64,000 nt of DNA from positions 310,001-374,000 of the forward strand of contig OZ237749.1 in the NCBI GenBank assembly GCA_965178125.1. The letters run 5' to 3'. A model generated the notes under the pieces. That model saw nothing but the letters and a program-made list of their open reading frames with translations, did not search any database and was not told where the DNA came from. The position numbers and the translations under genes were made by a program. This document shows positions 1-20,208 of this stretch, piece by piece (position 1 is the first letter of the stretch; each line of letters begins with the position of its first letter). The DNA is from Bilabrum cf. latius (lineage: Eukaryota).

Positions 1-271
1 AACACCTTGACCATCTAATAAAAGGGCTAGAATATTAAAATATATATGGTTATCTCTATAATAAAATCCATACGATGGCTATATCCACAAATTGCGTATT
101 AGTATATGTATTATTTAGCAAAACGTGGATGGATTAGTTTTATGAAGATGATTTGATTGATAACGTATTTCTAGCCCAAAAGTTCCTTCACTTTAGAAGG
201 TTGTAATATAGCCCCTTCTGACTCCCATCATCAATATGTTAAATATTAATTTTATCATTAATATCTAATTA

Positions 272-823
272 TTATTTACCAATATGACATTTATAACAAA
301 TTGAATATTTCATATCTTTAATTCTAGACACTCCGCATTTTTTACACGCCTTTTTTCCATATTTTGTAATCGTATAACAAGACTTACAGGTTGTCCTCCA
401 ATCACCTCTAGCCATTTTACAAAGACACACATCACATCTTTTTTCATTCCTCTTTTTTTCCTCTAACTTTTTCTATTTCTTTTCTAACTCAATATGTCTT
501 ATTCCTTCACAGTGCTTATTATATCGGTCTCTTGCGACATCCTTTTTACATATTCCACACCACTAATATAAACATTTTTTACGAATTTGATTTTCTTTAT
601 CCTTTATCATCTACTTTATACAACTAGAACCCACTTTAAAAACATATCCACTAGGGGTATGCTCTATTTCGTGCTCGGTTCGTATCTCGTGCCCACAAAT
701 ACAATTACCCAATTTATCACCTTGAATAACGGTTGAGCCAATATGAATTAATTTCTTCTAAATGTCCACCCATTTTATATTACCGGTATGTTCCTATATT
801 TGTTCAATACACTTTTTACACAT
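272..823 (-). CDS. Viral multi-CxxC zinc-ribbon protein (183 aa)
   Basis: ATG 823 to TAA 272, open apart from TAGs. Contains CICGHEI...VGSSCIK and several CxxC pairs. Missing from the ORF track. Confidence 0.75.
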
Positions 824-829
824 TCTCTA

Positions 830-900
830 TATAATATCTATATAATATAATCTTTAAGTCATTTTAAACGCGTTATATTATAAAAAAGGGGCTTAAAAAT
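830..900. promoter_or_regulatory. Duplicated divergent promoter block P, copy 1
   Basis: About 70 bp identical to 1575-1644. Contains TTTAAGTCATTTTAAACGC 30 nt from the ATG at 823. Confidence 0.6.
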
Positions 901-917
901 AGACACTATAGAAATAG

Positions 918-1140
918 ATGATTATATTAATTAATATTATTAAAATATTAATTAATTAGACCGGTTAAATAGTTCTTTGGAAAGTATGAACCTACTTTGA
1001 AAAGTATGAACCAACTTCGGAAAGTATGAACCTACTTTGAAAAGTGTGAACCAACTTCGGAAAGTATGAACCTACTTTGGAAAGTATCATTCACAGGTCA
1101 TATATTTATTTAATATGTATAAATAAATAATAAAATGATT
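918..1140 (+). repeat. Direct repeat R, copy 1: hairpin, 5 x 20-bp tandem array, hairpin
   Basis: Units TTTGGAAAGTATGAACCTAC from 976 to 1075 plus a partial unit. Near-identical to 2474-2717. Confidence 0.95.
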
Positions 1141-1195
1141 ATCTAGAGACATCTATTAAATATTTGTTGAAATACGTGCCCACTATTTTATTATA

Positions 1196-1567
1196 CTACT
1201 TCAAATGATACAGATACAGCGTCTTAAATTTATTATTTGTTTGTTTTAGACTGTCAAAACAACCATTTATATAACTTAGATATCTACTGTTTTCATCTGT
1301 GTCTTTATCCAAAACACAATCAAGTAATCCCATAGTTGTTTTCACATTTTTATAAGCGTTTAGATAATTATCATAAAAGTCTAATAGGTCTTCTAGTTCA
1401 GTTATATGATAATCTTTAGATTCTTTCTTAGTGGAGAAAATAGTGCTTTCCGTTTTCTCACGCTTTATAAAAGCCTCAGTCATTTTTTCTTCTTTTTTAA
1501 AGGCAATTTTGATTTCTTTTGATACGAGTCTATAAAAATTGTTCATTGTATCATAATAATTATCCAT
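1196..1567 (-). CDS. Viral hypothetical protein (~123 aa or slightly longer)
   Basis: ORF track. Conserved motif 30 nt upstream of the ATG. The track's end codon at 1196 is TAG, so the real stop is probably a few codons further on. Confidence 0.65.
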   Translation of the reverse strand: MDNYYDTMNNFYRLVSKEIKIAFKKEEKMTEAFIKREKTESTIFSTKKESKDYHITELEDLLDFYDNYLNAYKNVKTTMGLLDCVLDKDTDENSRYLSYINGCFDSLKQTNNKFKTLYLYHLK

Positions 1568-1574
1568 TGTGTGT

Positions 1575-1644
1575 ATAATATCTATATAATATAATCTTTA
1601 AGTCATTTTAAACGCGTTATATTATAAAAAAGGGGCTTAAAAAT
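1575..1644. promoter_or_regulatory. Duplicated divergent promoter block P, copy 2
   Basis: Lies between the divergent ATGs at 1567 (-) and 1672 (+), with CTTAAA about 30 nt before each. Confidence 0.6.
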
Positions 1645-1671
1645 TAATTACTATACATATTATATATAAAT

Positions 1672-2478
1672 ATGGACAAATAGAGATTTTCATTGACCTT
1701 TGGCGATGCTGGAGAGAATCATATAGGTATGGAAATGTTAGGTGAAAGGCTCAAGGAGGGAGAAGGATTTAAAAATGAAGATTTGAAGGGGGTGATGGAG
1801 GTATGCGAGGAGAAAGGGTTTAAATGTGAAATGATAAATTTAGATGAAGATGTAGATGAAGATTTAGGGGCTAGGGTATTAATAGTAAGGGAATTTTATA
1901 AAAAGAAGAAAATTAAAAAAGTCTTTGACGAGTTGAAGGGGTTAGAGTGGGACAAAAAGTATTTTGATAGAAGGCGGGGGAGGGTGTTAAATAAAAATGC
2001 CCGTCATAATTTAGTATTTATGAGTGATAATGAATAGAAAGAAGATTATGAAAAGGGATAGGGACGAGTATATGATGTGAATAAATTGAAAATGATGAAG
2101 GGAGTAAAGAAGAGGGTAGATAAATATATAAAAATGGGAATGGATAGGGTAAAAAGTAAATCCAAAAGAGTAGATTACGTTATAGAGGGTAATAATTATT
2201 ATGATTTGTCCCGCACAATGATAGGATTTCACGGTGATAGTGAAAGAAGGCGTGTAATATGTCTATCAGTCGGTGGTTATGATGAGCCTATGGCGTGGTG
2301 GTGGTTCAAAAATAGCAAGCCGTTATGTGAGCCCCGTATTATTAAATTAAATAGTGGAGATTTATATATGATGAGTGAAAAGGCGGTTGGTAGTGATTGG
2401 AAGAAGAAGAAAGTATCCACATTAAGACACAGTTTTGGGGAAAAAGGCATATAGGCGGGATTAAAAAAATATGGATGA
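1672..2478 (+). CDS. 2OG-Fe(II) oxygenase / AlkB-like protein of the giant-virus type (268 aa)
   Basis: Track ORFs 1693-2037 and 2077-2454 join in frame over TAGs and end at TGA. Motifs TFGDAGENH, LNKNARHNL, EGNNYYD, IGFHGDSERR (HxD), MSEKAVG, TLRH. Confidence 0.82.
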
Positions 2479-2717
2479 TTATAATAATTAATATTATTAA
2501 AATATTAATTAATTAGACCGGTTAAATAGTTCTTTGGAAAGTATGAACCTACTTTGGAAAGTATGAACCTACTTTGGAAAGTATGAACCTACTTTGAAAA
2601 GTATGAACCTACTTTGAAAAGTGTGAACCTACTTCGGAAAGTGTGAACCAACTTCGGAAAGTATCATTCACAGGTCATATATTTATTTAATATGTATAAA
2701 TAAATAATAAAATGATT
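2474..2717 (+). repeat. Direct repeat R, copy 2: hairpin, 6 x 20-bp tandem array, hairpin
   Basis: Units from 2533 to 2652 plus a partial unit. Flanks match copy 1. Confidence 0.95.
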
Positions 2718-3006
2718 ATCTTGCCTTATATAATTGAATGGGTTTCTTTTCTAATAGACAAACAGCCAAATAATGAAGTACAATGTCATCATCTCTATAC
2801 TTATTCCTCGTCTATATAATACATTTATAGGTTGAATATTTGAGATATAATAGCTTCTCTCTACTGTCTTTTTTTAATTGCTTGGTGATTTCTTTTACCT
2901 AATCACTGTTTGTAAAAATTACGGTCAAAACTCCATCAATTTCTGTCTGGATATAGACATCGTGTGTAGGCGGTAGATTCTCAATAATTTTATTTAACTT
3001 TTCCAT
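2716..3006 (-). CDS. Viral hypothetical protein (96 aa)
   Basis: ATG 3006 to TAA 2716 with two TAGs. Conserved motif 29 nt upstream. Confidence 0.6.
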
Positions 3007-3093
3007 TTGATATATATTAGTTAGTTAATATATATTTAAGTCATTTTAAACGCAGTTCTATCGCTTAAAGGATTAATTATTTGATTGAATTGC

Positions 3094-4983
3094 TTAGCTT
3101 GTTGAGAGCAGGGCCTCAAGATCGTCTGTTTTCATTGCCGCACCTCCACGCATCGTAAGTTTTCCGCCAAGTTTATTCAATTCTCCTCCACTATTTCCAT
3201 ATCCATAATGTGCCGCCGCTTTGCCAAGAGCACTATTGTCTCCTGTTAGACTTTTGAGTGGTCCTATATTCCTAATGGTTTTCGCTAGGTTTTTAGCCTA
3301 ATCACTTTTTGCCCAATCTTTAACCTTGTTCCATCCGTGTTTAAAGGCTCGTCCAATCTTAGACCAGAAACGACCTTTTCCACCCATAACATTAGCATAA
3401 TTATCTAAATCCTCAAATACAGGCTAGAAACCTTTAGAACCACTCTCAGCATCACCACGTTTAGCAAGTTCAGAAAGCACTTTAGAAGGCTCAATAAGGG
3501 CGCCAGCCTCAGTATAGACACCGTTATCATTCACAAGAACATTATCATAAAACATCCATACTTTTATCTCGTATTTATCCTCATTCGCACCATCCGCATA
3601 TTTATTATAAGGGTTGAAGCACTAAAGATTAACTTTAAGATTAAATCCAGTATTTACATTAGATTGAACACCAGCAAGTGTAGCAACATCTGAAGGTTTT
3701 AAAATCATATAGCAACCAGTACCGCGGTTTCCATCACTTCCATCAATTGATGAACCATAAAAGGATGAAGGAGGAAGAGCATATCCGTTCTTTCTACTAA
3801 TTCTATATAATTCGTGTGGATTATCTACAGCCCCTAATTCCTCAGCGCTTCCATTGAGTGAGAAACCTATTCTTCTAATTGGTAAAGTTCTATTAGCCCA
3901 GTTAGGGTTATCATCACAACCAACAAGGCGGGCACATACCATAATAGCACTAGGGATACCATTCTCACGGGATAATTGATAATCAAAAGAAGTTAAAGAA
4001 TTTTCAGTTGCGGATTTAGGTACAGGGACAGGCGCCTAAGACTAAAATTTAATTGTAGGCATATTATACATACAACGAGTCGGGGGGGCGTATCCACTCT
4101 AAAATTCAACTTCATCAACAAGAAGGGTCGTATTTGTTTCTCCTATAATTGACTAACCCGTTATTTTATTAATATCTCCGTTATCTTTTGTAAAACTAGC
4201 CTTACACAGTCTTTGAATAGCATTTACGTGATAATCTAAATCAACTTGAAGGCTTCTCACACCGGTGAAATATTTAGCATTCACATCAACATCTGCTCCT
4301 TTTAGTGGTATAGCTTCTTGAAAATCAATAGTCCAATCAATTTGGTCTCTATTACCCGCAACGAAATCAGCACTTACAGTCGTAAAAGCATTCCCATATG
4401 CTCCACGATAACTAAAGCTATCACCGGCACTATATCCAACATCCTAACCCCAAGCTAAAGGATTTTTAAGGGTATCACTTACTTCACGATAATCACCAAC
4501 AGTGTCAGGGCGTCCAACGGGTGAGATTGTGGATAAGGTTTCTTCACTGTTCATAACTTCAGTAGGTTCAGCCCATTCATAAACTTTTACTGTAAAAGGC
4601 TATCCATTAATTGTTAAAACACCACCTTGAAGCATTTTAAAGGTAGGTAATGAATTAGTTCCAAACCTAGATTTAAGATAAGATTGAGCGGTAATAGCAT
4701 CACCTCCCGCAGTTTGAGCTGGTACTGCTTGCTCTAGTTGTAGCCTAACTGTCATACGATGACGAAGACGAATAAACCTTGATACGGTTTTACTAGTAGG
4801 ATTAACGGGGAAAGAAAGGGGAAGAAGAGAATTAGATTGATTAGATGATGGTCTAATTTCTCGGCGGGTATATTTTTGAACACCTAGTTCTGTTCCTAAA
4901 CTAGCATCTTCAGGGGTTATCATTTGAAGGCTTTTAGGAGCCTTAATGCTTACTGGTAAATTCTGAACCATTTTTTGAGCCAT
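3094..4983 (-). CDS. Virophage major capsid protein (629 aa)
   Basis: Single frame, about nine TAGs, ends at TAA. Size and position after the penton match virophage MCPs. C-terminal VMGG followed by a basic tail. Confidence 0.88.
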
Positions 4984-5054
4984 TTTTTTATATATACACT
5001 ATAGATATAAATTTTTTAATATCTAAACATATTTTATAATCTTCTATAATTTAT

Positions 5055-6008
5055 TTAAAAATCTAAACTTAAATTATCGGTTTGTTTTTTAAATACTTGT
5101 TTAATGTGAGCTTCACCCCCGTTAAAATTCATTACGGGATACTTTTCATTTTGTTTATCAACCCAGTAGAACGCCATTGACACGCTCTTAAAGCTTCTAT
5201 CCTTCATCATTGAATACCAGCGGTAAGGATTAGAAACATATAATATATTTTCTATTGGTGAGCTGTCATTAGGATTATACGGGTAGCTGGTTAATATAGG
5301 GGATTTATTGACGGCTATAGAGCCACCAGTAGATGATTTTGTGGTCACCAATTCTTTATTCACTGGAATATCACTTTCTACGATAATAGATTTAACAGGG
5401 CACCAAGAATTTAAATTCGTCTATCTAGCCATAAAAACATAATCACCACTAGCAGGGGAATTATTATATGAAAGTTTAGCAAATAAATCACTCGGTGTGG
5501 TTGTTATTCCTTCATATTCAAATTTATCAAATAAAGCAAAAGCTTCAAAATTAACAAATAAATAATAATTATCTCTAAAATCTTCAGTTGTTGATAAACT
5601 CCATTTATTATTTTCAAATTTAAAGACTGGTTTATCACCACTTGGAAGGCTTACCAAATCACAAATTCGGCTTAACTCTTCATTAAATTCATTTACAATA
5701 TCCTAATATGAATAATAAAATTTAGCTTTTTTACCTAGAACTATATAATCGCCTGCTCTGGCTCCTGATGTTTTATTCTCAAGAGTAAATTTTAAATAGG
5801 TTTTACCGCTGTCATCCTAATATTCAGGTTTAAACACCGGTAGCATAAATTTATTTAAATCCATCTCTTCAACAGCCGTTAAATAATTTTCACTTTGTTT
5901 TAATATTAAGCCTTCACGGGTTTCATTCACTACCGCCTATCTCGTCTAATTGTGGGGGACAGATGAACTAACTAAATTCAATCTTACAAATTCATCGCTA
6001 TAACTCAT
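5055..6008 (-). CDS. Virophage minor capsid (penton) protein (317 aa)
   Basis: N-terminal NETR..IL....Y..AV...LPVFKP and C-terminal PYRWYSM...FYWVDK patterns. Joins track ORFs 5421-5657 and 5055-5363; ends at TAA. Confidence 0.87.
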
Positions 6009-6140
6009 TTTATTTATATATTAAAGCTATACAAATAAATATTTATTAATAAACCTTATCTAATATTTCACCTTGATTTTTACCCTTCACTTTTACCAAT
6101 ATATTTAAAAATTTGATTGAATTTAGATGGATGAAAAATT

Positions 6141-6337
6141 GCCCTTCTAAAACGATGGAACTTTTCTAAATAAAAGGGCTTATATCTTCATTTCACCTTC
6201 ACAAGAGGCCCTACATCCACGTTTTGCTAGAAAACACTATAATATATACGCAATTTGTGGATATAGCCATCGTATGGATTTTATTTTAGAGATAATCATA
6301 TTTTATTATTTTATTCTAGCCCTTTTATTAGATGGTC
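6141..6337 (+). repeat. Dispersed ~200-bp non-coding viral repeat, internal copy
   Basis: Reverse complement of 9-200 and a more diverged match to 15811-15945. Confidence 0.85.
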
Positions 6338-6344
6338 GGAGTAT

Positions 6345-6920
6345 TCAATGTAGAAGCAACGCCACTAACTAATCAGGACTAAGAGCCATAATTTTGGATA
6401 TTCTAAACATTTCATTTACAAACTAATCATTTGATAAGAAAGAAAAAGCGTTTCTTAATAGAGCCCATCTTCCACACGTAGCGCTGTTGTTAGCATAACT
6501 CTAAATCGGTTTATGATTATAATCAATTTTCCAACCTTCCATTTTCTAATCAATTAAATACTTTACCAGCGTATTTTCTTCTCCTTCTCCTTGATACAAT
6601 TGGTCTCTATTAATAAATGGTTTCTATTGGTCGGGTTTTTCTCCATAGCTATCAAAGAAGTATATTATTTTGCTTGATGGTTTTCTGGTCAATGAAATGA
6701 AATGACCGTATGTGCTATTTAGTCCCGTCTTTTTATTAGGATAATAAATAATTACGCCGTCATAACCATCAAAAATATGTTCAATAGATGAGGTCTATTT
6801 AATAATATCATCGTAAATAACTATTCTAGGTTTGTAATTCAAATGTGCTACACCTAATTTTTGAATTTCTAAAGGAGATAACGGTGTTTGGACTAGTCTA
6901 TTTAAGTCGTTTATGTTCAT
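6345..6920 (-). CDS. Virophage maturation cysteine protease, adenain/Ulp1-like (191 aa)
   Basis: YGHF...YFFDSYG.KPD...YNHKPI[TAG]SYANNSATCGRW; ends at TGA. Entirely missing from the ORF track. Confidence 0.92.
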
Positions 6921-6928
6921 TTATATAT

Positions 6929-7999
6929 TCAATAGAGAAATATTTTTTTTGTGCTAACTACATAATTATTATCAACATTAATAGCAACATAACCAAAGAG
7001 AGGGAGAGAATGAAGGGTTTTTTTGATTCGTTTTCTAGTAGGAGCGTCAAAACTTAAGACTGTTTCTAAAATATATTTTAAACTTTTAGCTGTAATTGTT
7101 TTATAAATGATATGGGTTGTAATTTCGTTCATAATGGTTCGTGTCTTCATACCGTCGCTTATTTTGTGGGTGATGTCTAAAACGCTACTTGCTGTGTGCC
7201 TCCCTGTAGTGGCTAGGATTTCCAATAAAAAATAAGCCTTTGCTTTCTGGTTCCTTTTTTTAAAGCCTTCGTAATCATCCAGAATAAATAAATTAGGTTC
7301 AGCGGTCAATTTTTTAAAAAACTCAACATTTAATTTAAAACCTTTTTCTATTAAATCTTTCTCAGGTTTCAAATCCTCTATCTTTCTTTCAGCTTCAATA
7401 ACAACATCTAAAGGTTTAGATTTCATCAAAGAAGATTTTTTATATTTAAATTCTAATTTCATTTTTTTATAATAAGCCATTTTTTCCTTATATAAAGTGT
7501 TTTCATTCTCTTTAACCAAATCATCTATATCAATGAAGGTCGCGCCTTCTCTTTTATATTTAGGGTCTTGAATTGGTGATATAACATACATATTTTTATA
7601 TTTTAATCCTCTATACATCCTTATATAATGTAAAGCTAAATGACTTTTCCCGCTTCCACTCTTACCAAATAATCGCACATATTCACGCCCCTATGGAAAG
7701 AGCATAGGAAAAGGTAAATATTGACTATTATCTTTAATCGCAAATTCCTAAACTGACCGTATATATTCATCTTGTAATAGTTTATGTAATTGTTCCCTTT
7801 TCTTGTCCTTATCAACGTTATATCTTACTCGGCTTTCTCCGTAATAAGATTTTAAAACATCATCTGTTATCTCTTCCGCTTTGACGTGTTGAATATCTTT
7901 AGCGTTCGGGTCGTAATAAATAAACCGGTTCTATTGTGTTTTTTTATATTTTTGAATAGCTACAATATGGCTATTTTCCGTATATTGTAAAGATAGCAT
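6929..7999 (-). CDS. FtsK-HerA family genome-packaging ATPase (356 aa)
   Basis: Walker A GKSGSGKS, Walker B LFILDD, TGRH motif, TRTIMNE. Extends upstream of the track ORF over TAGs to ATG 7999. Confidence 0.92.
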
Positions 8000-8091
8000 T
8001 ATATATAATAATAAAATAAAATAAACCATTTATTCACACGGGTTTAAAATATTAAGTTGGTTCCTTCTTCTATCCTTCCTCACAAAAAAAG

Positions 8092-8907
8092 TTATAGAGA
8101 CATAATTATATTTTTAATTTCCGCCCGTGTTTTCCTATTTATGTATTGGTCAATCCACGATATTATCTTATTAATATTTGCTTTAGAATACTTTGAAAAT
8201 TGTTTTATTATTTCCACATTTCCTAATGCTTTTCTCATTAGTCCTTTTAGGCTTTGAAATGATTTTGACTTCTCGCTTTGATGTCCTTTTATTCTTAGCA
8301 TACTTTCTAATCGCATTCTTATGGAATATAAATATCCTAATGCTTCCCTATCAATTAAATTATTGACTCTTTTTTCATTCCTCTTCTCACCTCTTAATTT
8401 AAATAAATCCTTCAATCGTTTTAATACTTTAAAATTATTAGAACCAAAATATTTATCTACATCTCTTATTAATCCATCTTTTACCTCGTCCTAATCTATT
8501 TCATAATCACTTATATGATAAATTATGCTTATTTCATCTATAAATTTTCCATCAAAAGCCCAAAAATCAATTTTTAAGTATGGTTTATCTCCGCTAAATA
8601 TCTATTTATAAATGGTTTTAACGGGTGTAGATATGAATGCTTTTATGGTCTTGTATTTTTTATTACCAGCTTTAACCTCAATAAAATTAACCTAACTTAT
8701 AAAAACCTTTACAAATCTTATTAAACTATTTATAAATTCAGGCTCTACCCTCTAATATAAATCTATATCACTAGCAAACAAGGAATAATAAGGAATAGCA
8801 TACGAACCATTTAAAAATAAATTAGCCCCCTTCTTAAAATTCACCTCATCAAATATATCGTTCTCGTATTCATTAAAATAAGCTTGTGTCAATTCATTAA
8901 TTTTCAT
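8092..8907 (-). CDS. Nucleotidyltransferase-fold protein, resembling Sputnik V21-like virophage proteins (271 aa)
   Basis: NGSYA...ASDIDL (GS..DxD), FIEVKAG, KIDFWAF, FKVLKRL; ends at TAA. Family assignment is from recalled motifs only. Confidence 0.6.
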
Positions 8908-8964
8908 TATATATTATAAGTATGGATAAATAACAAATTATATATACCCAATATATACAATAAT

Positions 8965-9354
8965 ATGAGCGTTAAATAGAGCATAAATGATATGACAAAT
9001 AAAAGCCTTCATCATCTTGGAATAAACAGAAATGATTATAAAAAAGAAATTGATAAAATGGTTGAAGATACAGCAAACCAAATATTAAACGCAACCACAA
9101 AAGGAAAGACAAAAGGGGGAGCTTTGAACCTTCTTGGTGGATAGCCGAACGTTCTCGCTGGAGGTCCCAATTATCTTGCTGGAGGAAAAAAGAAGGGTTC
9201 AAAGAAAGCCCCTAAAGCTAAAAAGCCCCGTAGTGCTAAATAGTTAAAGAGGGATAAATTAATGAAATGGTGCCGTCAAAAGGGAATGACTATGAAAGCC
9301 AGCAATTCCTTTATAAAGAAACACGACCTTATGAATAAGGATATTTCATTTTAA
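8965..9354 (+). CDS. Basic core/DNA-condensing-like viral protein with repeated GG sites (129 aa)
   Basis: KGG, LGG, AGG, AGG followed by a Lys-rich stretch; three TAGs, TAA stop. Confidence 0.65.
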
Positions 9355-9431
9355 AAGACAGCCTACCAATTGACATATTATCTCTTAAGTTTATAAATTA
9401 TTAATTATATCATTAATAATATATATATACA

Positions 9432-11510
9432 ATGTCAAACAATACAATTAATGATTTACTGAAGGGTATTATGTAGAAACGGTCTAATCAACTTAGGATA
9501 CAAAATGACCCACAAGTTAGATTAATGATATAGCAAGAAGAAGATGAAGCAGAAGCCAGAAGAAAAACCCTAAAAGATGATGCTTTCCTTCGTGCTAATT
9601 ATGTTCCTATTGATGTTAGAATTGAAAGACAACAACAACAACAAGGAATTGAAAATATTATTAAAAATATTAAGACTATGAACGCTAAAAAAGAATTACC
9701 AATTTATCAAATAGAAAATTTACAATCATTTATAAATAGAAATCCAGATTTACCGGATAAATTAAAAAGATAGGTTGTAGATACCATTAATAATATTAAT
9801 GTAAGGTAGGTAGTAGGACCAGCAAGCGATAAGAAAAAGGTATTTGATGGAATTAAAAATATTAATATGAGATTATTTACAACCACTAAAGCACAACGGG
9901 ACGCAGTATTAGAACAATTACCAAGCGATATGAGAGGATTAAAAGCAGTTCAAATACGAAACGCTTTACGACAAGCTGGAATCACGAAAACCCCCCAAGG
10001 ATAGAATGTTTCACAATTAACAAAAGTTGATGACGCTGTTAATGCTTTATAGGATGTTTTAAATCCTCCTGAAGCCGTTCAACAATAGCAAAGAGATGAC
10101 CCGCAACCTGATAGACCTGAACCAGATAACCCGCAACCGCCACCAGAACCAAGACCAAAACCCCCTCCAACACCACAAGAAGCATTAAGCCCAGAACTAC
10201 AAGAACAAATTGAAGCACTTGAAAGAGTAGCAAACGCCAATCCTTCAAGTAGTAGAAAAGCACCAAAGAAAACCGAACTAGCAAAAATACTTAGAGAGTC
10301 AAATGTTAAAGGTGTAAAAGGACGGTCTAAAGTTGATTTTATAAAAAGTGCTTAGAAGAAATTATCAGAACTTAAACAAAAAGCACAAGAACAAGAGGCA
10401 TCACAATCATCAGGACAAGAAGAAGAAGGGGAGAACGCCAGTAGAAATTTATCAGGCTAGTTTTCAAAAGTATCACCCGCACCAGTTCCACCTAGTGGAT
10501 TCTTACAAGCATCACCAGAACCACAAGGACAATCACCAGAACAAGAACAAGGACAATCACCAGAACAACAACAAAGCACATTTGGTTCTTTAGGACAATC
10601 GGTTATGGATGGTATCAGTTATTTAACAGGAAAAACAGGCTCACAACCACAAGCACCCCCCGCAGGTCAAGACAGAGGAAAAGGTGAAGCGATGGCAGTA
10701 GATGAAGATGGAGAACCTATTACAGATGAATTTGGAAGACAACTTACAGAAGTTCAATTCAGACAAAGACAAGCACAGGCAGAACGAGATGAAGCACAAA
10801 GACAACAAGAAGAAAAAGAAAGACAAGCTAGAGAACGGAGGGGAGCCCCAGATGAAGAACCAAGAGATGGAGAAGCCGTAGAACCAGCACAACAAGCACA
10901 ACCAGCAGAACCAGCACAAGAACCAGCAGAACCACAAGAACCACAGAAAACAGATGATGAAATAGCCAAATCAATAGGACAATCAATAAATGCTAAAGGC
11001 AATAAAAATGAAATATTATCATAGTTAAAAGCAAGAGGAATAAATCCAACAGACGCCAGCCCAACAATTAACACTTTAAAATATATTATACGAAGGCTTA
11101 AAGCCGGAGTCTTACAACCTAATTTATCAACTGATGCTGTTAGGTCTTTAGTAGCTAGAGCAAATACAGAAGGAAGAGCAACCAGAAGTGATAGAACATT
11201 AGCAAAATCAAGACTAAACGATACGGGATATGAATTAAGCGGGAAGCCTCAATGGACATATTCACCACCAGCTCAAGGTTTTGGAAATAAAGACCCTTAT
11301 AATATGTTAATGAAAGCTATTAATTTAATTATTGATTAGAAAATAAAAACATAGAATAGGGGCGGTAGTTGTGGATGTGGCAAGCATAAAGGAGGACAAA
11401 TTGAACAAGAATATTTTAATATAGCCGGTGGTAAAGGTAATCATAATGTGAAGGACAAGGTAAAACAAATCTTATATCAACACTTTGAAAAACTAAGATT
11501 ATTAAAATAA
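9432..11510 (+). CDS. Large Gln/Glu/Pro-rich viral protein (692 aa)
   Basis: 2079-nt frame broken only by TAG, including CAA CAA TAG CAA at 10080-10091. C-terminal GG motifs; TAA stop. Confidence 0.8.
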
Positions 11511-11555
11511 TTAGTCTATAGGATAATAATATTTTGTTTTGTATAGATATATATA

Positions 11556-12173
11556 ATGGCAGAGTTAGTAGCAACAGCAAGCACGGTTGGTGGGGTGTTG
11601 GTTCCTCTAGGATATGCGGGATGCTTCCTTTGGAACTTATGTTCCTCACTTGCGAATCGTAAAAAATTGTGTTTAGTCCTTCCACGAAAAGGAGGTAAAA
11701 GTTCACTTAACAAAAGTTTAACGTCTATAGACCCGAATATTCTATTAGTTGATTTAGATGAAGTCCTTAAAGTTAATGCTGACACCAAACAGGTCGTACA
11801 TTTGAATGACGCCGAAGCTAGGGGCGACGTATCAACAGCCAAACTTTTAAAATTTGAGCTTATGAAAAAAAGCATTGAGAAAGTTAAATCAAATTGGTTA
11901 TAGAAAGCAGAACATAGAGCCGTCTTTCTTACTTCAGATTTTGACCTAGCAAAAGAAATATTCAAGCCCTCCAGCGTGTGTGTAGCAATACCAAGCGATA
12001 AACTATACAGCAATATCTCTAAAGATTTAGACGAGAAGGATAAAGCAGTAGCTAGACATTCACGAGCTGAATTTTTGAAGAGCTTTAACCCTAATGAATA
12101 TAGCGTATATAATACCTTTGAAGGGCTTTCATAGATGGTGATGAATGTCTATGGTCTTACATATAGGGTCTAA
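11556..12173 (+). CDS. Divergent P-loop NTPase/kinase-like viral protein (205 aa)
   Basis: LVLPRKGGKS followed by ILLVDLD; hydrophobic N-terminus; two TAGs, TAA stop. Confidence 0.55.
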
Positions 12174-12209
12174 TTATTTGAATATTATTAAATAATAAAT
12201 TAATAATAT

Positions 12210-13367
12210 TTATTTAGTCTTATTATTAAAATTATCCTTTAGGGTTTTTGATATATTTTTAGCCGGCTCCGTTGTTATCTTCCATTGAATTAAATATTCA
12301 TCTTGTCCCTCTTTATTCTTTCTTCTCTTTATTATTTTACCTATATCATTCTAATATTTTCTTTTAGTAGCCTCATCAACATATGAATCTTTCCATTTAA
12401 CCCTGTATGTATTATTTTTATTCTTTCTTATCAATTTTTCAATTATAAATATATCTTGTGCTTTATTCTCGTATGGTTTAGATGCTAATAACAACTAATC
12501 TCTATTAAAGTATGTATAGGGTATGCCCTCAATTTTATATAATGGGGGGTTATCTGGTTTTATTATTACTCTTTCAATTTTATAAGGCTTTACGCTATAT
12601 TTAATATCTCCCGCCCTAAATGCTCCGGTTTCCTTTATCCCTTCTATACTTCTAGGATAATCTAATCCTATTCTTACCATTTCGCCCTCATTTAATACAT
12701 CACATACTTCACCCTAACATCTAGGCGGTATATATGGTAGATTCTCCCTTTTCTTATTCAACATTTCCTATCTTGTTTTATAACGCTCGTTTAATATCTC
12801 CCTCAACTTTGGTATTAAATGTCTCCAGTTCGTAATAGTTGTCCCCGTTCTTATCTCCTATGAATTCAAATAATAAAATATAGCTCTCCCTATTTCCTCA
12901 TTCAATCTCTCCACCAAAGCCATCTACGATTTACGCTTCACTCTTGAAAATATATGCTCTATCTTATTCTTCTTTAGATATTCTTTAAATGATTCATTAT
13001 CAAATTCTCCCCCTTTATCTGTTCGTATCATTTTAGGTTTCATTAAATAATTTCTTTTATAGATTTTTTGAAAAGCTTTTATCACATCCTCCGCCCCTCT
13101 ATCCTTTAACTCTTCAAAATCTAACGCTAATCCGCTAGTATCTATCACAACTAATAAATATTTTGAATCGTTCTTGGTAGCGTAAGGGAGATACAATAAA
13201 TCAGCCTATTGGATAAGCCCCTCTTTAGTAGGTTTATAATATTTAACATAATTCAATCCTTTCGGTTTCTTTATCGGCTTCATTAAATCGTTCGTGATAG
13301 ACTTCGTATTAAATCCAAAACTTGATTCATTAATATCATTATCTTTTTTCTTTCCTCTCTTACTCAT
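12210..13367 (-). CDS. Retroviral-type (rve) integrase with C-terminal chromodomain-like region (385 aa)
   Basis: DDE triad: Q[TAG]ADLLYLP, IRTDKGGEF, LVERLN. C-terminal YRVKWKD and EYLIQWK..TEP; TAA stop. Confidence 0.93.
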
Positions 13368-13407
13368 TATATATATTAATTGATTTTAATATTTATAAAT
13401 TAATTAT

Positions 13408-13779
13408 TCACGAATTAAAAAGCCTATTAATAGCTTCATTCGTTTTAATGTGCTCCTTGGTGTCTCTTATCTCCTAATGGATATCAACCAGCTTTAATTT
13501 TTCTTTCTTAGTGAGTCCGTTCATCCTTCCTTTTAATGCTTTTAAAGTTTTCATATAAGGGGCTATAGCTTCTGCTTTCTTTTTGCTCACCTCTTTATAT
13601 TCCACATTAAGAGCGGTTAATTTACTATTCACTTTATTTTTTAATTCTGTCTCTTTTATTTTTAGTTGCTTTAACTTTTGTTCTAATTCACGATTGGTCT
13701 TCTTAAAGTCTTCTACAATATCAAGAAATTCATTCTTTAACTTTGAGCGGGTATTAATCACTTTTTGTAATTTATCCAT
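13408..13779 (-). CDS. Viral coiled-coil protein (123 aa)
   Basis: Track ORF extended over one TAG to TGA. Confidence 0.7.
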
Positions 13780-13789
13780 TTATATATAA

Positions 13790-14119
13790 TTACTAGATAT
13801 TTTTTTTATTTTTTTTAAACTTCATTTTAACTCTTTGTAATTCTCGTGCTATTTCTAATTCCATTAATCCCCTTATTATTCTGCCATCGTGATAATCCTA
13901 AACTGAACAATGAATCAAATCATTCTAAACTGCCGGTAAAGGTATTCTATACATCAATTCATATTTAATAATCTCAAGCGTTATTCTGCCTGTTCTCTTC
14001 TTCAAAGCTACCCCTAATAAGAGCGGTATTTGTTTATCAGAAACTCTTTTGAATGTCCCTCTAACTATTTTTAATATTCTGCTTATACTCTAATCTGTAT
14101 AAATTGCTCTAAAATCCAT
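13790..14119 (-). CDS. Viral hypothetical protein (109 aa)
   Basis: ATG 14119 to TAA 13790 with TAGs only; TATA-rich sequence upstream. Confidence 0.6.
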
Positions 14120-14222
14120 CGGTATATACTAAACCTATATTTTTTTTATTTATTTTTTAAACTATAGAATTTTATAAAACGGGTTTAATAAATTAAAATA
14201 AAATATTGGGCTACATTATAAT

Positions 14223-14639
14223 ATGTTCGTTAAGTTCCTGTTATCAAGTGTCAACGTTAAAAAGGTACTCAAGAATAAAAGCATCTCCACTTTTATGTCA
14301 ATCGTATATATTTATGTTGAGAAGCACAAACCATCAATGTTAAAGCATTTTCAACTTGATGACCTTCGTGTCCCTCCAGATTGTAATGAACGACTTAAAA
14401 AAAGAGTATTAAGTGAATTTGAAGAAATTGATTATATATCATATTTCGTTCAACCATTTAGAATAATACACAAGCTAAATGAAGAAAATGTTGAATGCCT
14501 AAGTGAAGACTTAAATGATACCGTAGCCATAGATTTATTGGTTAAAAAAGAGAAGGAAGCCATTGAGAAATCAATAAAGAAATAGAAGGATGACATCATC
14601 AAAAAGGCTATAGATGACTTTATCTTACCCAAGGATTAA
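14223..14639 (+). CDS. Viral hypothetical protein (138 aa)
   Basis: Track ORF extended over one TAG to TAA. Confidence 0.6.
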
Positions 14640-14686
14640 ACTATATATTAATAATAATAATAATAGTATTATTAAAATTCAACAAT

Positions 14687-15034
14687 TTATTCTAAAAACT
14701 CAATATCAAACCATTCATTTGAATCATCATATTCTTCAGCATACATCAAAGATAATTCTATATACTCTTCTAATTCACTATTAGTAAGGTTATCAATTTC
14801 TTCTTCTTTCAATAGTTTGAAATCGGTTCCGTTGTCATCATTAAAACTTTCAACTTGACTTTCTGCTTCCTTTTTATATTCTTCTTTCCAATTATCACTC
14901 CATACAACTCTCTTCGCTTGGTCTTTTAAAGTGTCAGTATAAAGCTTTTGTGCTTCTTCCTTATTATTAAACTTTTTAACCCAGTGTGTATGATAACATT
15001 CACTACCCCACGCTAATGATACAATATAAACCAT
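14687..15034 (-). CDS. Viral acidic hypothetical protein (115 aa)
   Basis: ORF track; TAA stop. Confidence 0.7.
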   Translation of the reverse strand: MVYIVSLAWGSECYHTHWVKKFNNKEEAQKLYTDTLKDQAKRVVWSDNWKEEYKKEAESQVESFNDDNGTDFKLLKEEEIDNLTNSELEEYIELSLMYAEEYDDSNEWFDIEFLE

Positions 15035-15075
15035 ATCTATAATAATTAAAAGTAAAATAATTATTATAATAAAAC

Positions 15076-15654
15076 TTAATTAAAATTATCCTCTATCTCG
15101 TCTCTCTCCTCGTTATCCAATACCCATTTTAATCTTGAAGGGTGCCACGCTCTAGAAATTAATTCTTCTTTATATTTTTTTGTTGTCTCAATTATCTTAT
15201 CTTTTCTATTTTTCCAATACCTGTTATCAGTTAGCGTATATATTATGTTCTCTGATATAGTCTCAAAACGTTTTACTTTCTGTTTATGGTTCTGGATTAT
15301 TGCTTTAATCTCGGGAGAACGTGAAACCCGCTCATTTATTAAACTCTGAATACTCCTCCTATTTCCATAATATCTTAAATGTTCTATTTCACTATTAGTT
15401 AATCGGTTTTCTTTTACTTTTCTCATTTTAGATATTGTATCCTATTTGATAATCCGTAATTTTATTTTCTAATACTTTTTTAATACAAGGTATAAAATCT
15501 ACTCTATAGCTTCATCCTCATTATCATATAAATCACATAGATAATTATATCGTTCCCAATGGACTCGCTCAGCTTTTCTAAGAAATGTTTTAGACGGTCT
15601 AAGCTCCTTTCTCAAACTCATAGATTTTTTGGTTAATAGTTCTAAGAAATCCAT
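15076..15654 (-). CDS. Viral hypothetical protein with a KEEL...WHPSR C-terminal motif (192 aa)
   Basis: Extends upstream over three TAGs to ATG 15654; conserved motif 29 nt upstream. Confidence 0.7.
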
Positions 15655-15810
15655 TCTGTATATACCTATAATAAATATATTTTTTAAGTCAATTTAAACG
15701 CTCTATAACAATTTAAAAATAAAAGCGTCTTTGTTCCATTTGTGAAGGTATAAGCGAGGATAAGGGGGTATAATGAAGGTAGTTTAGAAGGTTGAATAAT
15801 GGAGTCCCAT

Positions 15811-15945
15811 AAAGTGATGGAACTTTTGGCTAGAAAATGGCTAGAGTCCCATAACACCTTCACAAGAGGGCTACATCCACGTTTTGATTAGAACTTACAT
15901 ATACTAATACGCAATTTATGGATATGGTCATCGTATAGAGTTTTA
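15811..15945 (+). repeat. Dispersed viral repeat, subterminal copy
   Basis: ATGGAACTTTT...CACCTTCACAAGAGG.CTACATCCACGTTTTG...ATACGCAATTT.TGGATAT shared with 6141-6337 and, inverted, with 9-200. Confidence 0.8.
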
Positions 15946-16745
15946 TATATAATTGATTTTATATAATTAGAAGGATAAAGCAGTTATATGAAGTAGCAGT
16001 ATGAAGAGGCTCACCTTGACTTTTGGAGCGACTAGCTCCAAAAGGAGTGGAACGGACTGAAGAGCTTTAGCTCTGATGGACTGGAACTATTGATGATGTT
16101 AATCATCCTTAACCGAAGGGAATAAATTTATTTATTACCGTAGCGGGGGGGCGCGCAGATCCGATCCTCTCAGCTCTTGTCTCCTCCATCTTTTCTGTTT
16201 CTCCCCTGTGACGCGCGCAGTACGCTCACTACGACGAGTCGCGTTCTTTCAGCGATTTCCGCCCCTTCGGCGGGTGGTCGAGCCCTGCCATGAAGCAGTA
16301 CGGAGGGGACGCGACCGTCTGCGGTGCTGGCGTGGACCTGAACTGGTACCCCTGAGCAGCAGGGGAAACCAAAGAGAACGGATCGGACGGTGGTGATGGT
16401 CAAATCGGTCGGTCCTTCTTGTGTGGTTAGGCTTCACCAGGTGATGCCAGTAGGTTGGGCTGCGGTGGCCTGCTACTCGTTGGGTGGCATGCCGTCCTAT
16501 TCATCGACTTCGCTTCGCATTTTGAAAGGATCCGCAGCTGCAGAACGGTTAAGTTTACATCAAAGATTCTTGACTTAAACTGAAGGTATGCCATGATGCA
16601 ATAATCCGGTCCAAGCACCCCAGCTAGGCAGGCAGCGCCAGCAAAAACAGCACCGAACACCGAAAACTCATCTTATTAATTCAATCAAAAATTATTGGAC
16701 GAACACCCGGACTCTCCTTGCGAGGCAATCGATCCCGGCAGGCTT

Positions 16746-19229: not shown

Positions 19230-19338
19230 TCTGCACCAAGTAAGCGGCGATAAATTATCGGATTTATATTCAAGAGTATTTTCGAACGCTATAATTGTGC
19301 ACGAAACCGAAAAATTATGAAATACACAGAGCGCAGCA

Positions 19339-20208
19339 ATGGAATATCTTGTACAGGTATTAGAGCACCCTAATCCTGCGCCAATATTTGCGGTTGGGGT
19401 GCTAGTCGCTGCAGTCTCCGTAGGAGCACTCAAGGTGATGCCCATGTTGCCGTGGTTGGGCATCGATGATGACGACGAGAATGACGAGAGCACTGACGCT
19501 GCTAGCACAAACAACCCGGAGAAAAAGAATGGCGATCAAGTGAAGGTCACAGGCGGCGGACTGGATGACGACGGTAGCGACGCATCTGAGACGGCAGCGG
19601 GAGAAAAAGAATCTACTTTACAATCAGCCAATGCCGAAGTAGGCAGCCACAATGCTTCCATTGAAGATTCTTCTTAGACCAGCGAATAGGATAGTAGTAA
19701 GCTCGCAAAGAAATCGAAAGCGAAGAAGCCGGAGGACCAGACAGACAACGAAATTCTGCAAATGTCTGCCGATGACGAAGAAAAATATATCGATGCGATG
19801 CGAAGACTGATGCCGTACACGGATGAGGCGACAATACGAGCCGAGTATGCCCGCGCAAAGGCCATTAGCGCAGACTAGGCGAGGAAGCATGGGTTGGAAG
19901 GCGCGGTGAGCCAGGCCCAGTCCAGCATGCAGGGTAATTCTGCCATGGTACGAGGGGCCCTGGACACGCTCGTGATTCTGGCCGTGGCGGGTGCAGCGCT
20001 TTTCTTTTTGATGCGGGACAAGGTGGTAACCCTTGACGGCTTGCTCGACTTCGCGAAGCCCTATTTCCCTCGCGAGCTCGCTACGGTGCTCGGCAACATC
20101 GACCCGCACGGCGGGGGCGACGAGCAGGAGGGGGTTGGTGTGGGCGGTGTCGAGAGCCTTGCTGAGGTAACGGCTGTGCCTGGGATCGGCACAGGCGAAG
20201 AATTGTGA
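19339..20208 (+). CDS. Hypothetical membrane protein (289 aa)
   Basis: Track ORFs 19339-19677 and 19894-20208 join over three TAGs; two hydrophobic segments; TGA stop. Confidence 0.7.

What the first reader, a model, noticed from the sequence alone, without database searches (positions are those of the whole stretch)
1..16151. Intact-looking endogenous virophage recoded to its host's UAG=Gln code
Seen: MCP (about nine TAGs), penton, protease, ATPase and integrase are full length only when TAG is read through, with no frameshifts and no internal TAA/TGA. TAG encodes the protease oxyanion-hole Gln (6501-03) and the Q of integrase QADL (13206-08), and sits inside a CAA run (10086-88). Random decay in AT-rich DNA would also produce TAA, TGA and indels. 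Inference: the virus is adapted to this host, could not make virions in a standard-code cell, and implies a helper giant virus that tolerates or uses the same code. That would be a host-virophage-giant virus system isolated by genetic code, which standard pipelines would call pseudogenes.
Basis: partly seen in the sequence, partly recalled or inferred. Interest (0 to 1): 0.95.

Follow-up and report, generated by a model that had tools for sequence, protein, structure and literature searches.

The report
Endogenous virophage that reads TAG as glutamine
A mavirus-like virophage sits in a GC-rich protist genome, and both virus and host read the stop codon TAG as an amino acid (glutamine in the virus), so almost every gene of the virus would be cut short in a cell that uses the standard genetic code.

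Summary
Window 1 to about 16140 is 29-38% GC and abuts 54-66% GC eukaryotic DNA. With TAG read as sense, 18 ORFs tile it: 72 in-frame TAG, stops 14 TAA and 4 TGA, and 17 of 18 ORFs need TAG read through.

Major capsid, penton and rve integrase match virophage or integrase families.

TAG means Gln. Five TAG codons lie in columns where distant homologues mostly have Q, including the protease Q (8 of 8) and three integrase Qs. Over 21 columns Q scores +11.6 bits and the next residue -10.7.

The host also reads TAG as sense.

Other copies, at about 15 times the flank's depth, differ mostly synonymously: 22 of 32 listed coding differences, P about 1e-6. A metagenomic relative also carries in-frame TAG.

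Not shown: the left end, a replication gene, excision, or any giant virus.

Endogenous viral elements using a host's variant code were already reported for Streblomastix (PMC10120064). I rate this a new variant of a known kind, interest about 0.6.

The parts
1..250 (-). Left copy of a repeat of about 230 bp, inverted relative to the other two copies. It may be the left terminal inverted repeat. The window starts here.
   Evidence: arms 9-131 match 6214-6337 at 86-91% complementarity, and arms 38-155 match 15850-15968 at 73-79%.
272..823 (-). ORF of 183 aa, Cys-rich, 5 TAG, no family match.
850..871 (-). 22-nt promoter-like motif lying about 27 nt upstream of the ATG. Further copies lie at 1594-1615, 3032-3053 and 15680-15701, each upstream of a minus-strand ORF.
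   Evidence: family D5, 86-100% identity; upstream regions.
1139..1567 (-). ORF of 142 aa, 1 TAG, unknown function.
1672..2478 (+). ORF of 268 aa, 4 TAG, with a weak match to 2OG-Fe(II) oxygenase (AlkB-like). It lies in a segment with about one third of the depth of the rest, so it is an accessory segment missing from many copies.
   Evidence: PF13532, E 7e-4, below the cut-off; phrog_21963, E 0.0036; depth in bins 1335-2668.
2716..3006 (-). ORF of 96 aa, 2 TAG, unknown function.
3094..4983 (-). Major capsid protein, 629 aa, 9 TAG.
   Evidence: PDB 6g45, E 2.8e-8, residues 92-615. (family profile against 6g45, E 3.7e-109, and 3j26 capsid protein V20, E 1e-33). (12 of 14 members match PF22031). 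(54 homologues).
5055..6008 (-). Penton (minor capsid) protein, 317 aa, 5 TAG.
   Evidence: PF21507 Sputnik V18/19, 29.2 bits against a cut-off of 27. (6g41, E 2e-34; 3j26_N, E 3.5e-12).
6110..6337 (+). Internal third copy of the repeat of about 230 bp, in the same orientation as the right copy.
6345..6920 (-). Cysteine protease, 191 aa, 6 TAG. H73, D90 and C149 lie in invariant or nearly invariant columns. TAG140 lies in a column that is Q in 8 of 8 distant homologues.
   Evidence: One search gives a weak adenain match (E 1.9). One homologue carries PF00770.
6929..8029 (-). P-loop ATPase, 366 aa, 3 TAG. I infer that it is the packaging ATPase.
   Evidence: phrog_2666 terminase large subunit, E 1.1e-6. 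(G-S-G-K-S and the D251/D252 pair invariant with L002). No Pfam match. Only weak P-loop matches in the PDB.
8092..8907 (-). ORF of 271 aa, 4 TAG, unknown function.
8965..9354 (+). ORF of 129 aa, 3 TAG, basic and Gly-rich, with a weak relative in L002.
9432..11510 (+). ORF of 692 aa, rich in Q, P and E and of low complexity, with 12 TAG and 64 CAA. TAG at 10086-10088 sits inside the run caa caa tag caa.
   Evidence: A counterpart in L002 aligns at 19% identity.
11556..12173 (+). ORF of 205 aa, 2 TAG, conserved with L002 (44% identity), unknown function.
12210..13367 (-). rve (DDE) integrase with a C-terminal chromodomain-like part, 385 aa, 7 TAG.
   Evidence: PF00665, 45.6 bits against a cut-off of 32.6; Chromo 23.2 against 25.1. 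(D56, D117 and E153 invariant in 15 sequences). (retroviral integrases in the PDB).
13408..15654 (.). Five small ORFs of unknown function: 13408-13779 (-), 13790-14119 (-), 14223-14639 (+), 14687-15034 (-) and 15076-15654 (-). They carry 1, 4, 1, 0 and 3 TAG.
15790..16000 (+). Right copy of the repeat of about 230 bp.
16104..16150 (.). Right boundary of the element, where AT-rich multi-copy DNA gives way to GC-rich DNA at the flank's depth.
   Evidence: sequence. (variants at depth 398 of 751 up to 16104; depth 34.9 at 16367)..
16746..19535 (-). Host S9 peptidase. An in-frame TAG at 16983-16985 lies inside the domain, before the D-P-R-V and E-G-H-G-F stretches.
38283..40244 (+). Host calcium-dependent protein kinase. 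An in-frame TAG at 38997-38999 lies inside the kinase domain.

Best explanation
Window 1 to about 16140 is one copy of a multi-copy, mavirus-like virophage integrated in, or at least assembled next to, a GC-rich eukaryotic chromosome.

The virus carries the capsid module (major capsid protein, penton, maturation cysteine protease, P-loop ATPase) and a retroviral-type rve integrase with a chromodomain-like tail. That integrase is the likely means of insertion.

Both the virus and the flanking cell genes use a code in which TAG is a sense codon and TAA and TGA terminate (NCBI table 15). In the virus TAG means glutamine. The virus is translated by the host's ribosomes, so it has drifted with the host's code. 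Under AT pressure TAG has largely replaced CAG as the G-ending Gln codon (CAA 124, TAG 72, CAG 9).

Shown:
- family membership of capsid, penton and integrase;
- TAG is sense in virus and host;
- TAG means Gln in the virus;
- purifying selection between copies;
- a metagenomic relative with in-frame TAG.

Inferred:
- integration by the rve integrase;
- dependence on a giant virus;
- the code acts as a barrier to other hosts.
For: 1. Composition and ORF structure.

2. Family matches:
- The MCP alone hits PDB 6g45 at E 2.8e-8.
- The MCP family profile hits 6g45 at 3.7e-109 and Sputnik V20 at 1e-33.
- The penton has a Pfam match above its cut-off. Its profile hits 6g41 at 2e-34.
- rve scores above its cut-off with D56, D117 and E153 invariant.

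3. TAG means Gln. Counts of Q among distant homologues at TAG columns:
- protease 140: 8 of 8
- protease 99: 5 of 8
- integrase 54: 11 of 12
- integrase 148: 10 of 12
- integrase 291: 12 of 12
Over 21 TAG columns Q scores +11.6 bits and the next residue, E, scores -10.7. With known codons, nine columns recover the true residue at rank 1 in 65-90% of trials.

4. Host code:
- The kinase domain is whole (profile positions 6-263 of 263) only with TAG read.
- A TAG lies inside the S9 peptidase domain.
- With TAG as sense the longest host ORFs grow from 1161, 854 and 850 aa to 1861, 1615 and 1574 aa. TAA or TGA as sense adds little.
- 9 of 10 long host ORFs end in TGA and 1 in TAA, with 85 TAG inside them.

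5. Copies:
- Contig depth over the element is about 403 against 27.7 for the flank in run X2, and 704-787 against 46.5 in run X5.
- Of 39 listed differences, 32 lie in ORFs. 22 are synonymous, 10 are not, none makes a stop and none touches a TAG. The expected synonymous share is 0.27, P about 1e-6.

6. Relative L004 (contig also fetched in part as L002; L001 is a second contig of the same MCP cluster):
- 17 ORFs tile 86% of the contig with 16 in-frame TAG. Stops are 9 TAA and 8 TGA.
- Two TAG lie inside the homologous N-terminus of the MCP, at the same places in two separate contigs.
Against: - The left end of the element is not in the window, and no genome is held. Target-site duplication, full length and true terminal repeats are therefore untested.
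- No DNA polymerase or primase-helicase was recognised in the visible part.
- A third, internal copy of the end repeat does not fit a simple genome flanked by terminal inverted repeats.
- In the MCP alone the 9 TAG columns rank T (+3.9) above Q (+2.0). In 16 of the 21 columns Q is not the commonest residue.
- The host TAGs in the kinase and the peptidase fall at variable positions (V/I, and A/L), so they show 'sense' but not 'Gln'.
- No contig was shown to bridge the junction at about 16140. Contig tables were cut: 627 pieces and 220 loose ends were not shown. Integration therefore rests on the window's own assembly.
- Only 39 of 137 differences were listed.
- Depth ratios from contigs are not a clean copy number (one search's own caveat). 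Some of the excess could be episomal DNA.
Confidence: 0.85

Rival explanations
1. A decaying, pseudogenised viral insertion. The TAGs would be disabling mutations that accumulated after integration.
For: Under the standard code every core gene is broken. Endogenous viral elements often look degraded (PMC10120064, passages read).
Against: - 72 TAG stand against no TAA or TGA in frames that cover 87% of the element at the 100-aa ORF threshold. Out of frame, TAA and TGA are commoner than TAG.
- TAG sits at invariant Gln positions.
- 22 of 32 coding differences between copies are synonymous.
- The host's own genes carry in-frame TAG.
Confidence: 0.02
2. A free or episomal virophage present in the culture, joined to host DNA by mis-assembly. 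On this reading it is not endogenous.
For: Depth is about 15 times that of the flank. The window starts inside the element, as if the assembly broke there. No bridging contig was displayed.
Against: - The depth ratio is alike in two runs (14.6, and 15-17), which fits a fixed copy number better than an infection.
- The element encodes an rve integrase.
- The multi-copy signal stops at 16104-16367, exactly where GC content jumps.
- The two runs may come from one culture, so this argument is weak.
Confidence: 0.1
3. A polinton-like or Maverick-type self-mobilising element with virophage-type capsid genes. It would spread without any giant virus.
For: It has an rve integrase with a chromodomain and many near-identical copies. 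No giant-virus sequence or promoter was found. The TCTA motif is not enriched upstream of the genes (my count).
Against: MCP and penton match the mavirus and Sputnik proteins specifically. No protein-primed polymerase was seen in the visible part. These facts concern family, not lifestyle, so the rival is not excluded.
Confidence: 0.15
4. TAG is a sense codon but encodes a residue other than Gln, such as Glu, Thr or Lys, or it is ambiguous.
For: - MCP columns alone rank T first.
- Protease column 166 is E in 7 of 8 homologues.
- UAG has been given several meanings in ciliates. I saw only the title and the start of the abstract of PMC11687900, in a search listing.
Against: Five columns are dominated by Q, three of them with 11-12 of 12 homologues or 8 of 8. 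Combined log-odds are Q +11.6 against E -10.7 and T -18.6. The depletion of CAG (9 against CAA 124) fits synonymous CAG-to-TAG drift.
Confidence: 0.03

Closest known systems
Mavirus and endogenous mavirus-like elements (EMALEs) of Cafeteria. The names are from recall. PDB 6g41-6g45 are labelled only 'major/minor capsid protein' by the tool.
   Same: - The MCP and penton are homologous.
- It has an rve integrase.
- It is AT-rich within a GC-rich host.
- It occurs in many near-identical copies.
- It has inverted end repeats.
   Different: - 17 of 18 genes need TAG read as Gln.
- No polymerase or helicase was seen in the visible 16 kb.
- There is an extra internal copy of the end repeat.
- The MCP is only about 25-30% identical to its relatives.
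Endogenous polinton-like viruses of Streblomastix strix that use the host's TAA/TAG=Gln table (Bellas et al. 2023, PMC10120064, passages read).
   Same: An integrated small DNA virus follows its host's stop-codon reassignment. The authors read this as a sign of long association.
   Different: - Here only TAG is reassigned, and TAA remains the main stop (14 of 18 genes).
- The capsid belongs to the mavirus/Sputnik virophage family rather than to the Metamonada polinton-like group.
- The meaning of the codon is tested here at catalytic positions.
- Selection between copies is measured here.
Metagenomic virophage contig L004 (an IMG/VR record; also fetched in part as L002). L001 is a second contig of the same MCP cluster.
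   Same: - It shares penton, MCP, protease, ATPase, the 205-aa protein, the long low-complexity protein and an rve integrase with a chromo part.
- It has in-frame TAG and no TAG stops.
   Different: - Its proteins are 28-44% identical to those of the window.
- It is 40% GC.
- TAG makes up 8% of its Gln codons, against 35% here.
- Its gene order is rearranged.
- It was found as a free contig, without host flanks.
Giant-virus metagenomic genomes that annotate better under variant codes (PMC13524828, passages read).
   Same: They suggest that viruses of hosts with reassigned stop codons exist. That would include the kind of helper this virophage would need.
   Different: Those are giant viruses. 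The clearest case there uses code 6. No link to this host or to this virophage is shown.

Membership tests
Virophage (mavirus/Sputnik lineage) | Major capsid protein homologous to Sputnik V20 and to the mavirus MCP | tested here: met
   (6g45, E 2.8e-8). (family profile: 3.7e-109 against 6g45, 1e-33 against 3j26 V20). (12 of 14 family members match PF22031). The window's own Pfam score is 17.2, below the cut-off of 27.
Virophage (mavirus/Sputnik lineage) | Penton (minor capsid) protein | tested here: met
   PF21507 at 29.2 bits against a cut-off of 27. The profile hits 6g41 at 2e-34 and 3j26_N at 3.5e-12.
Virophage (mavirus/Sputnik lineage) | Adenain-like cysteine protease with H, D/E, Q and C | tested here: inconclusive
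   H73 and D90 are invariant and C149 is nearly invariant. Column 140 is Q in 8 of 8 distant homologues. The adenain match is only E 1.9. There is no Pfam match for the window's protein. One homologue carries PF00770.
Virophage (mavirus/Sputnik lineage) | FtsK/HerA-type packaging ATPase | tested here: inconclusive
   The P-loop G-S-G-K-S and the acidic D251/D252 pair are conserved. phrog_2666 matches at E 1.1e-6. There is no Pfam match and no clear PDB match.
Virophage (mavirus/Sputnik lineage) | Replication depends on a co-infecting giant virus | not testable with these tools
   No giant-virus sequence lies in the window. No RNA run was listed.
Retroviral-type (rve, DDE) integrase | rve core with the D, D, E triad | tested here: met
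   PF00665 at 45.6 bits against 32.6. D56, D117 and E153 are invariant in 15 sequences. It aligns to retroviral integrase cores.
Integrated element of EMALE type | Terminal inverted repeats and a target-site duplication at both junctions | tested here: inconclusive
   The outer repeat copies are inverted (73-79% complementary). A third internal copy exists, however. The right copy ends about 140 bp before the junction. The left junction is outside the window.
Polinton/Maverick | Protein-primed family B DNA polymerase together with an rve integrase | tested here: not met
   No polymerase family matched in any of the 18 ORFs of the visible 16 kb. The unseen left part could hold one.
Genetic code with TAG=Gln and TAA/TGA as stops (NCBI table 15) | TAG is read as sense in virus and host | tested here: met
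Genetic code with TAG=Gln and TAA/TGA as stops (NCBI table 15) | The residue at TAG is glutamine | tested here: met
   Met for the virus only: Q +11.6 bits over 21 columns, and five columns dominated by Q. For the host only 'sense' is shown.
Genetic code with TAG=Gln and TAA/TGA as stops (NCBI table 15) | TAA and TGA still terminate | tested here: met
   Virus stops are 14 TAA and 4 TGA. Of 10 long host ORFs, 9 end in TGA and 1 in TAA. No TAA lies within those 11768 host codons, although 85 TAG do. TAA as sense does not lengthen the longest ORFs.
Genetic code with TAG=Gln and TAA/TGA as stops (NCBI table 15) | A tRNA-Gln with anticodon CUA and an altered release factor | not testable with these tools
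   There is no tRNA in the window or in L001, L003 and L004. No genome is held.

The most novel reading that the evidence does not exclude
This virophage and its metagenomic relatives mark a whole virus-host system that works only under a TAG=Gln code. The system would comprise a little-known lineage of GC-rich protists, virophages that have become dependent on the code (35% of Gln codons are TAG), and a still unseen giant virus that must at least avoid TAG stops. The code would then be a barrier that confines these viruses to one host lineage. In-frame TAG in virophage capsid genes could serve as a marker to find such hosts and their giant viruses in metagenomes.
Probability: 0.4. Interest if true: 0.8.

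Novelty: new variant of a known kind. Interest (0 to 1): 0.62.

Why it matters
The finding shows that a virophage can become fully dependent on a rare nuclear code in which TAG alone is reassigned. It also gives residue-level proof of what the codon means.

Standard pipelines break such genes. One public prediction of the relative's capsid starts after its second TAG. Recoded virophages are therefore likely under-counted.

The element also predicts that giant viruses compatible with TAG=Gln exist. It offers a simple search marker for them and for their hosts.

Tried and rejected
Searches that found nothing:
- Word-based homology search with the MCP.
- tblastn of the MCP against phage records.
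- Scans of IMG/VR with the MCP alone and with P0002.

Searches that needed a second attempt:
- The 14-sequence MCP alignment was too loose to give search patterns.
- A 4-sequence MCP alignment then gave 3 loci in metagenomes.
- The ATPase alignment gave only L004, which is the same contig as L002.

Tests with little or no power:
- Host tandem repeats as a test of TAG against CAG. All repeat copies use CAG, so there is no information.
- MCP columns alone do not fix the residue. T ranks first and Q second.
- Pairwise MAFFT of the window's protease with L002's places TAG140 one column off the Q. The 11-sequence alignment resolves this.

Negative or empty results:
- TCTA upstream motif. I counted about 4-5 genes with it within 40 nt. 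My rough estimate for such AT-rich sequence is about the same, so I make no claim.
- No RNA holder was listed for the element, so expression is untested.
- No tRNA and no Rfam family in the window. No tRNA in L001, L003 or L004.
- The 616-aa ORF of L004 that looks polymerase-like to my eye has no Pfam match, so I do not name it.

Tools not available:
- No whole genome is held for this window.
- Host lineage was not determined. The protein-atlas search did not accept the query and I left the question open.

Literature: searches for a TAG-recoded virophage found none. Supplements of papers were not seen and may hold per-genome code assignments.

Full report
**Observation**

The first 16 kb of the window are 28.5-38.1% GC. 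Everything beyond is 54-66% GC. The switch lies at about 16140-16150, where AT-rich sequence runs into a G/C-rich stretch.

Under the standard code the region holds only short ORFs. With TAG read as sense, 18 ORFs tile it. I counted 72 in-frame TAG in 4551 codons, and 17 of the 18 ORFs have at least one. Terminal stops are 14 TAA and 4 TGA.

The ORFs were defined by TAA and TGA, so I used a control that does not depend on that definition. ORFs of 200 aa or more cover these shares of the element:

| Code | Coverage |
|---|---|
| TAG as sense | 63% |
| Standard | 8.6% |
| TAA as sense | 24% |
| TGA as sense | 17% |

Out of frame, TAA (499) and TGA (350) are commoner than TAG (224). Random decay would therefore not give TAG alone.

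**What the genes are**

- **Penton.** It passes Pfam's cut-off for the Sputnik V18/19 penton (29.2 bits against 27). A two-sequence profile hits PDB 6g41 at 2e-34 and the Sputnik minor virion protein at 3.5e-12.
- **Major capsid protein.** With X at every TAG, the MCP alone hits PDB 6g45 at 2.8e-8 over residues 92-615. An exhaustive phmmer search found 54 relatives. A 14-member profile hits 6g45 at 3.7e-109 and Sputnik V20 at 1e-33. 12 of the 14 members match PF22031. That 6g41-6g45 are the mavirus proteins is my recall, because the tool gives only 'major/minor capsid protein'.
- **Integrase.** It passes the rve cut-off (45.6 bits against 32.6). It has a chromodomain-like tail just under its cut-off. 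D56, D117 and E153 are invariant in 15 sequences.
- **Protease.** H73 and D90 are invariant and C149 is nearly invariant. It has a weak adenain match (E 1.9).
- **ATPase.** It has a P-loop and a PHROG terminase-like match (1.1e-6), but no Pfam match.
- **Missing.** No polymerase or primase-helicase was recognised in any of the 18 ORFs.

**Meaning of TAG**

I searched with X at the TAG positions, so that the query could not favour Q.

In the protease alignment I excluded the two close relatives. Column 140 is then Q in 8 of 8 homologues and column 99 is Q in 5 of 8. Column 166 is E in 7 of 8. Column 140 is the Gln just before the catalytic Cys. I recall it as the oxyanion-hole Gln of adenain-like proteases.

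In the integrase alignment I also excluded the two close relatives. Column 54 (the position two before the first catalytic Asp) is Q in 11 of 12. Column 148 is Q in 10 of 12. Column 291 is Q in 12 of 12. Columns 170, 218 and 339 are not Q.

The nine MCP columns are uninformative on their own, with T at +3.9 and Q at +2.0. Summed over 21 columns, Q scores +11.6 bits, E -10.7 and T -18.6. The method recovers the true residue at rank 1 in 65-90% of random nine-column samples of known codons.

Codon usage agrees with this. The counts are CAA 124, TAG 72 and CAG 9. That is what AT pressure would give if CAG-to-TAG changes were synonymous.

**The host**

The flank holds cell-type genes.

- A calcium-dependent protein kinase has a domain that is whole (profile positions 6-263 of 263) only if the TAG at 38997-38999 is read. 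Under the standard code only positions 165-263 are covered. The alignment runs across that codon.
- An S9 peptidase has a TAG at 16983-16985 inside the domain. The codon lies upstream of the D-P-R-V and E-G-H-G-F stretches.
- With TAG as sense the longest host ORFs grow from 1161, 854 and 850 aa to 1861, 1615 and 1574 aa. TAA or TGA as sense changes little.
- In ten long host ORFs there are 85 TAG, 345 CAG and 121 CAA, and no TAA in 11768 codons. Nine end in TGA and one in TAA.

The host therefore also uses TAG as sense, with TAA and TGA as stops. The two host TAGs that I could align fall at variable positions. For the host the residue is therefore inferred, not shown.

**Other copies and selection**

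Six public runs from two studies hold the element. Logan contigs of runs X2 and X5 cover it at depths of about 403 and 704-787. The single-copy flank has 27.7 and 46.5, a ratio of about 15. The tool warns that such depths are no clean copy number.

The segment 1335-2668 has about one third of that depth. It is flanked by direct repeats, so it is probably an accessory cassette that many copies lack.

Of the 137 places that differ, 39 were listed. Of these, 32 lie in ORFs. 22 are synonymous in the TAG=Q frames and 10 are not. None creates a stop and none touches a TAG. With the observed ratio of transitions to transversions, the expected synonymous share is 0.27, giving P about 1e-6. The copies therefore diverged under selection on these reading frames.

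Near-identical proteins are in public collections with Q at the TAG sites: P0001 (MCP residues 305-629, 99% identical) and P0072 (integrase, 98%). A second lineage, 74-82% identical, also exists: P0073 and P0064.

**Relatives in metagenomes**

L001 and L002/L004 share the following with the window, at 28-44% identity:
- penton, MCP, protease and ATPase;
- the 205-aa protein and the long low-complexity protein;
- an rve integrase with a chromo part.

In L004, 17 ORFs tile 86% of the contig with 16 in-frame TAG. Stops are 9 TAA and 8 TGA. Two TAG lie inside the homologous N-terminus of the MCP at the same places in two separate contigs. The public prediction P0004 starts only after them.

The closest non-self MCP is 42% identical. 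It is split into two predicted proteins (P0012 and P0002) that are each recorded on a JGI contig of the same length, 6899 bp. I could not read that contig.

**Open points**

- The window starts in the element, so the left junction is unknown.
- A repeat of about 230 bp occurs three times. The copy at 1-250 is inverted. The copies at 6110-6337 and 15790-16000 are direct. The outer two could be terminal inverted repeats. The inner one is unexplained. L004 shows a comparable pattern, with a palindrome at 2445-2522.
- Integration rests on the window's assembly, the GC step and the depth step. No bridging contig was displayed.
- Nothing bears on a giant virus.

**Prior work**

Bellas et al. 2023 (PMC10120064, passages read) reported that endogenous viral elements of Streblomastix strix use the host's TAA/TAG=Gln table.

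Paez-Espino et al. 2019 (PMC6905037, passages read) noted an ochre-suppressor tRNA in one virophage clade as a possible sign of reassignment in hosts.

A 2026 catalogue (PMC13524828, passages read) found giant-virus genomes that annotate better under variant codes.

Seven literature searches found no report of a virophage that uses TAG as a sense codon. Supplements were not available.

**Verdict**

It overreaches on 'intact' and on the giant virus. I rate this a new variant of a known kind.

Noticed in passing
window 16151-64000: The flanking eukaryotic genome itself reads TAG as sense, with TGA (9 of 10 long ORFs) and TAA as stops. Its ORFs are very long, up to 1861 aa, and mostly uninterrupted. 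A nuclear code with TAG alone reassigned is rare, and I did not determine the host lineage.
   Followed up: partly
window 1-250, 6110-6337, 15790-16000: There are three copies of a repeat of about 230 bp. The left copy is inverted and is closest to the internal copy (86-91%). The right copy is more diverged (73-79%). The internal copy sits between the penton and protease genes.
   Followed up: partly
window 850-871, 1594-1615, 3032-3053, 15680-15701: A conserved 22-nt motif lies about 27 nt upstream of four minus-strand ORFs. It is possibly a promoter class distinct from the TATATA-rich stretch just before most start codons.
   Followed up: partly
window 816-2741: Direct repeats (816-900 matches 1560-1644 at 94%; arrays with 20-nt spacing lie at 955-1164 and 2512-2741) flank a cassette with a weak 2OG-Fe(II) oxygenase-like gene. 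The depth of this cassette is about one third of the rest of the element.
   Followed up: partly
L004 1-98, 2358-2596, 16347-16376: The metagenomic relative has a 39+39-nt palindrome at 2445-2522. Copies of the flanking sequence lie at both contig ends, as if two units bounded by terminal inverted repeats, or a circular permutation, had been assembled. Its integrase lies in the small unit.
   Followed up: no
window 42737-47431 (+): This host ORF of 1564 aa has FG-GAP repeats, five near-identical tandem units of 59 aa, EGF-like Cys patterns and a transmembrane tail. It carries 15 in-frame TAG, none of them inside the tandem units.
   Followed up: partly
proteins P0064, P0068, P0073 (Logan and ENA contigs): Two Logan contigs hold a second virophage lineage, 74-82% identical in protease and integrase. 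An ENA fragment (P0068) is 70% identical in the protease. The contigs could not be read.
   Followed up: no
window 9432-11510 (+): This 692-aa protein is rich in Q, P and E. It has 64 CAA and 12 TAG and a strong AT skew (0.31), and it lies in the least AT-rich part of the element (38% GC). A counterpart in L002 also carries in-frame TAGs, two of them at aligned positions, though the alignment is only 19% identical.
   Followed up: partly
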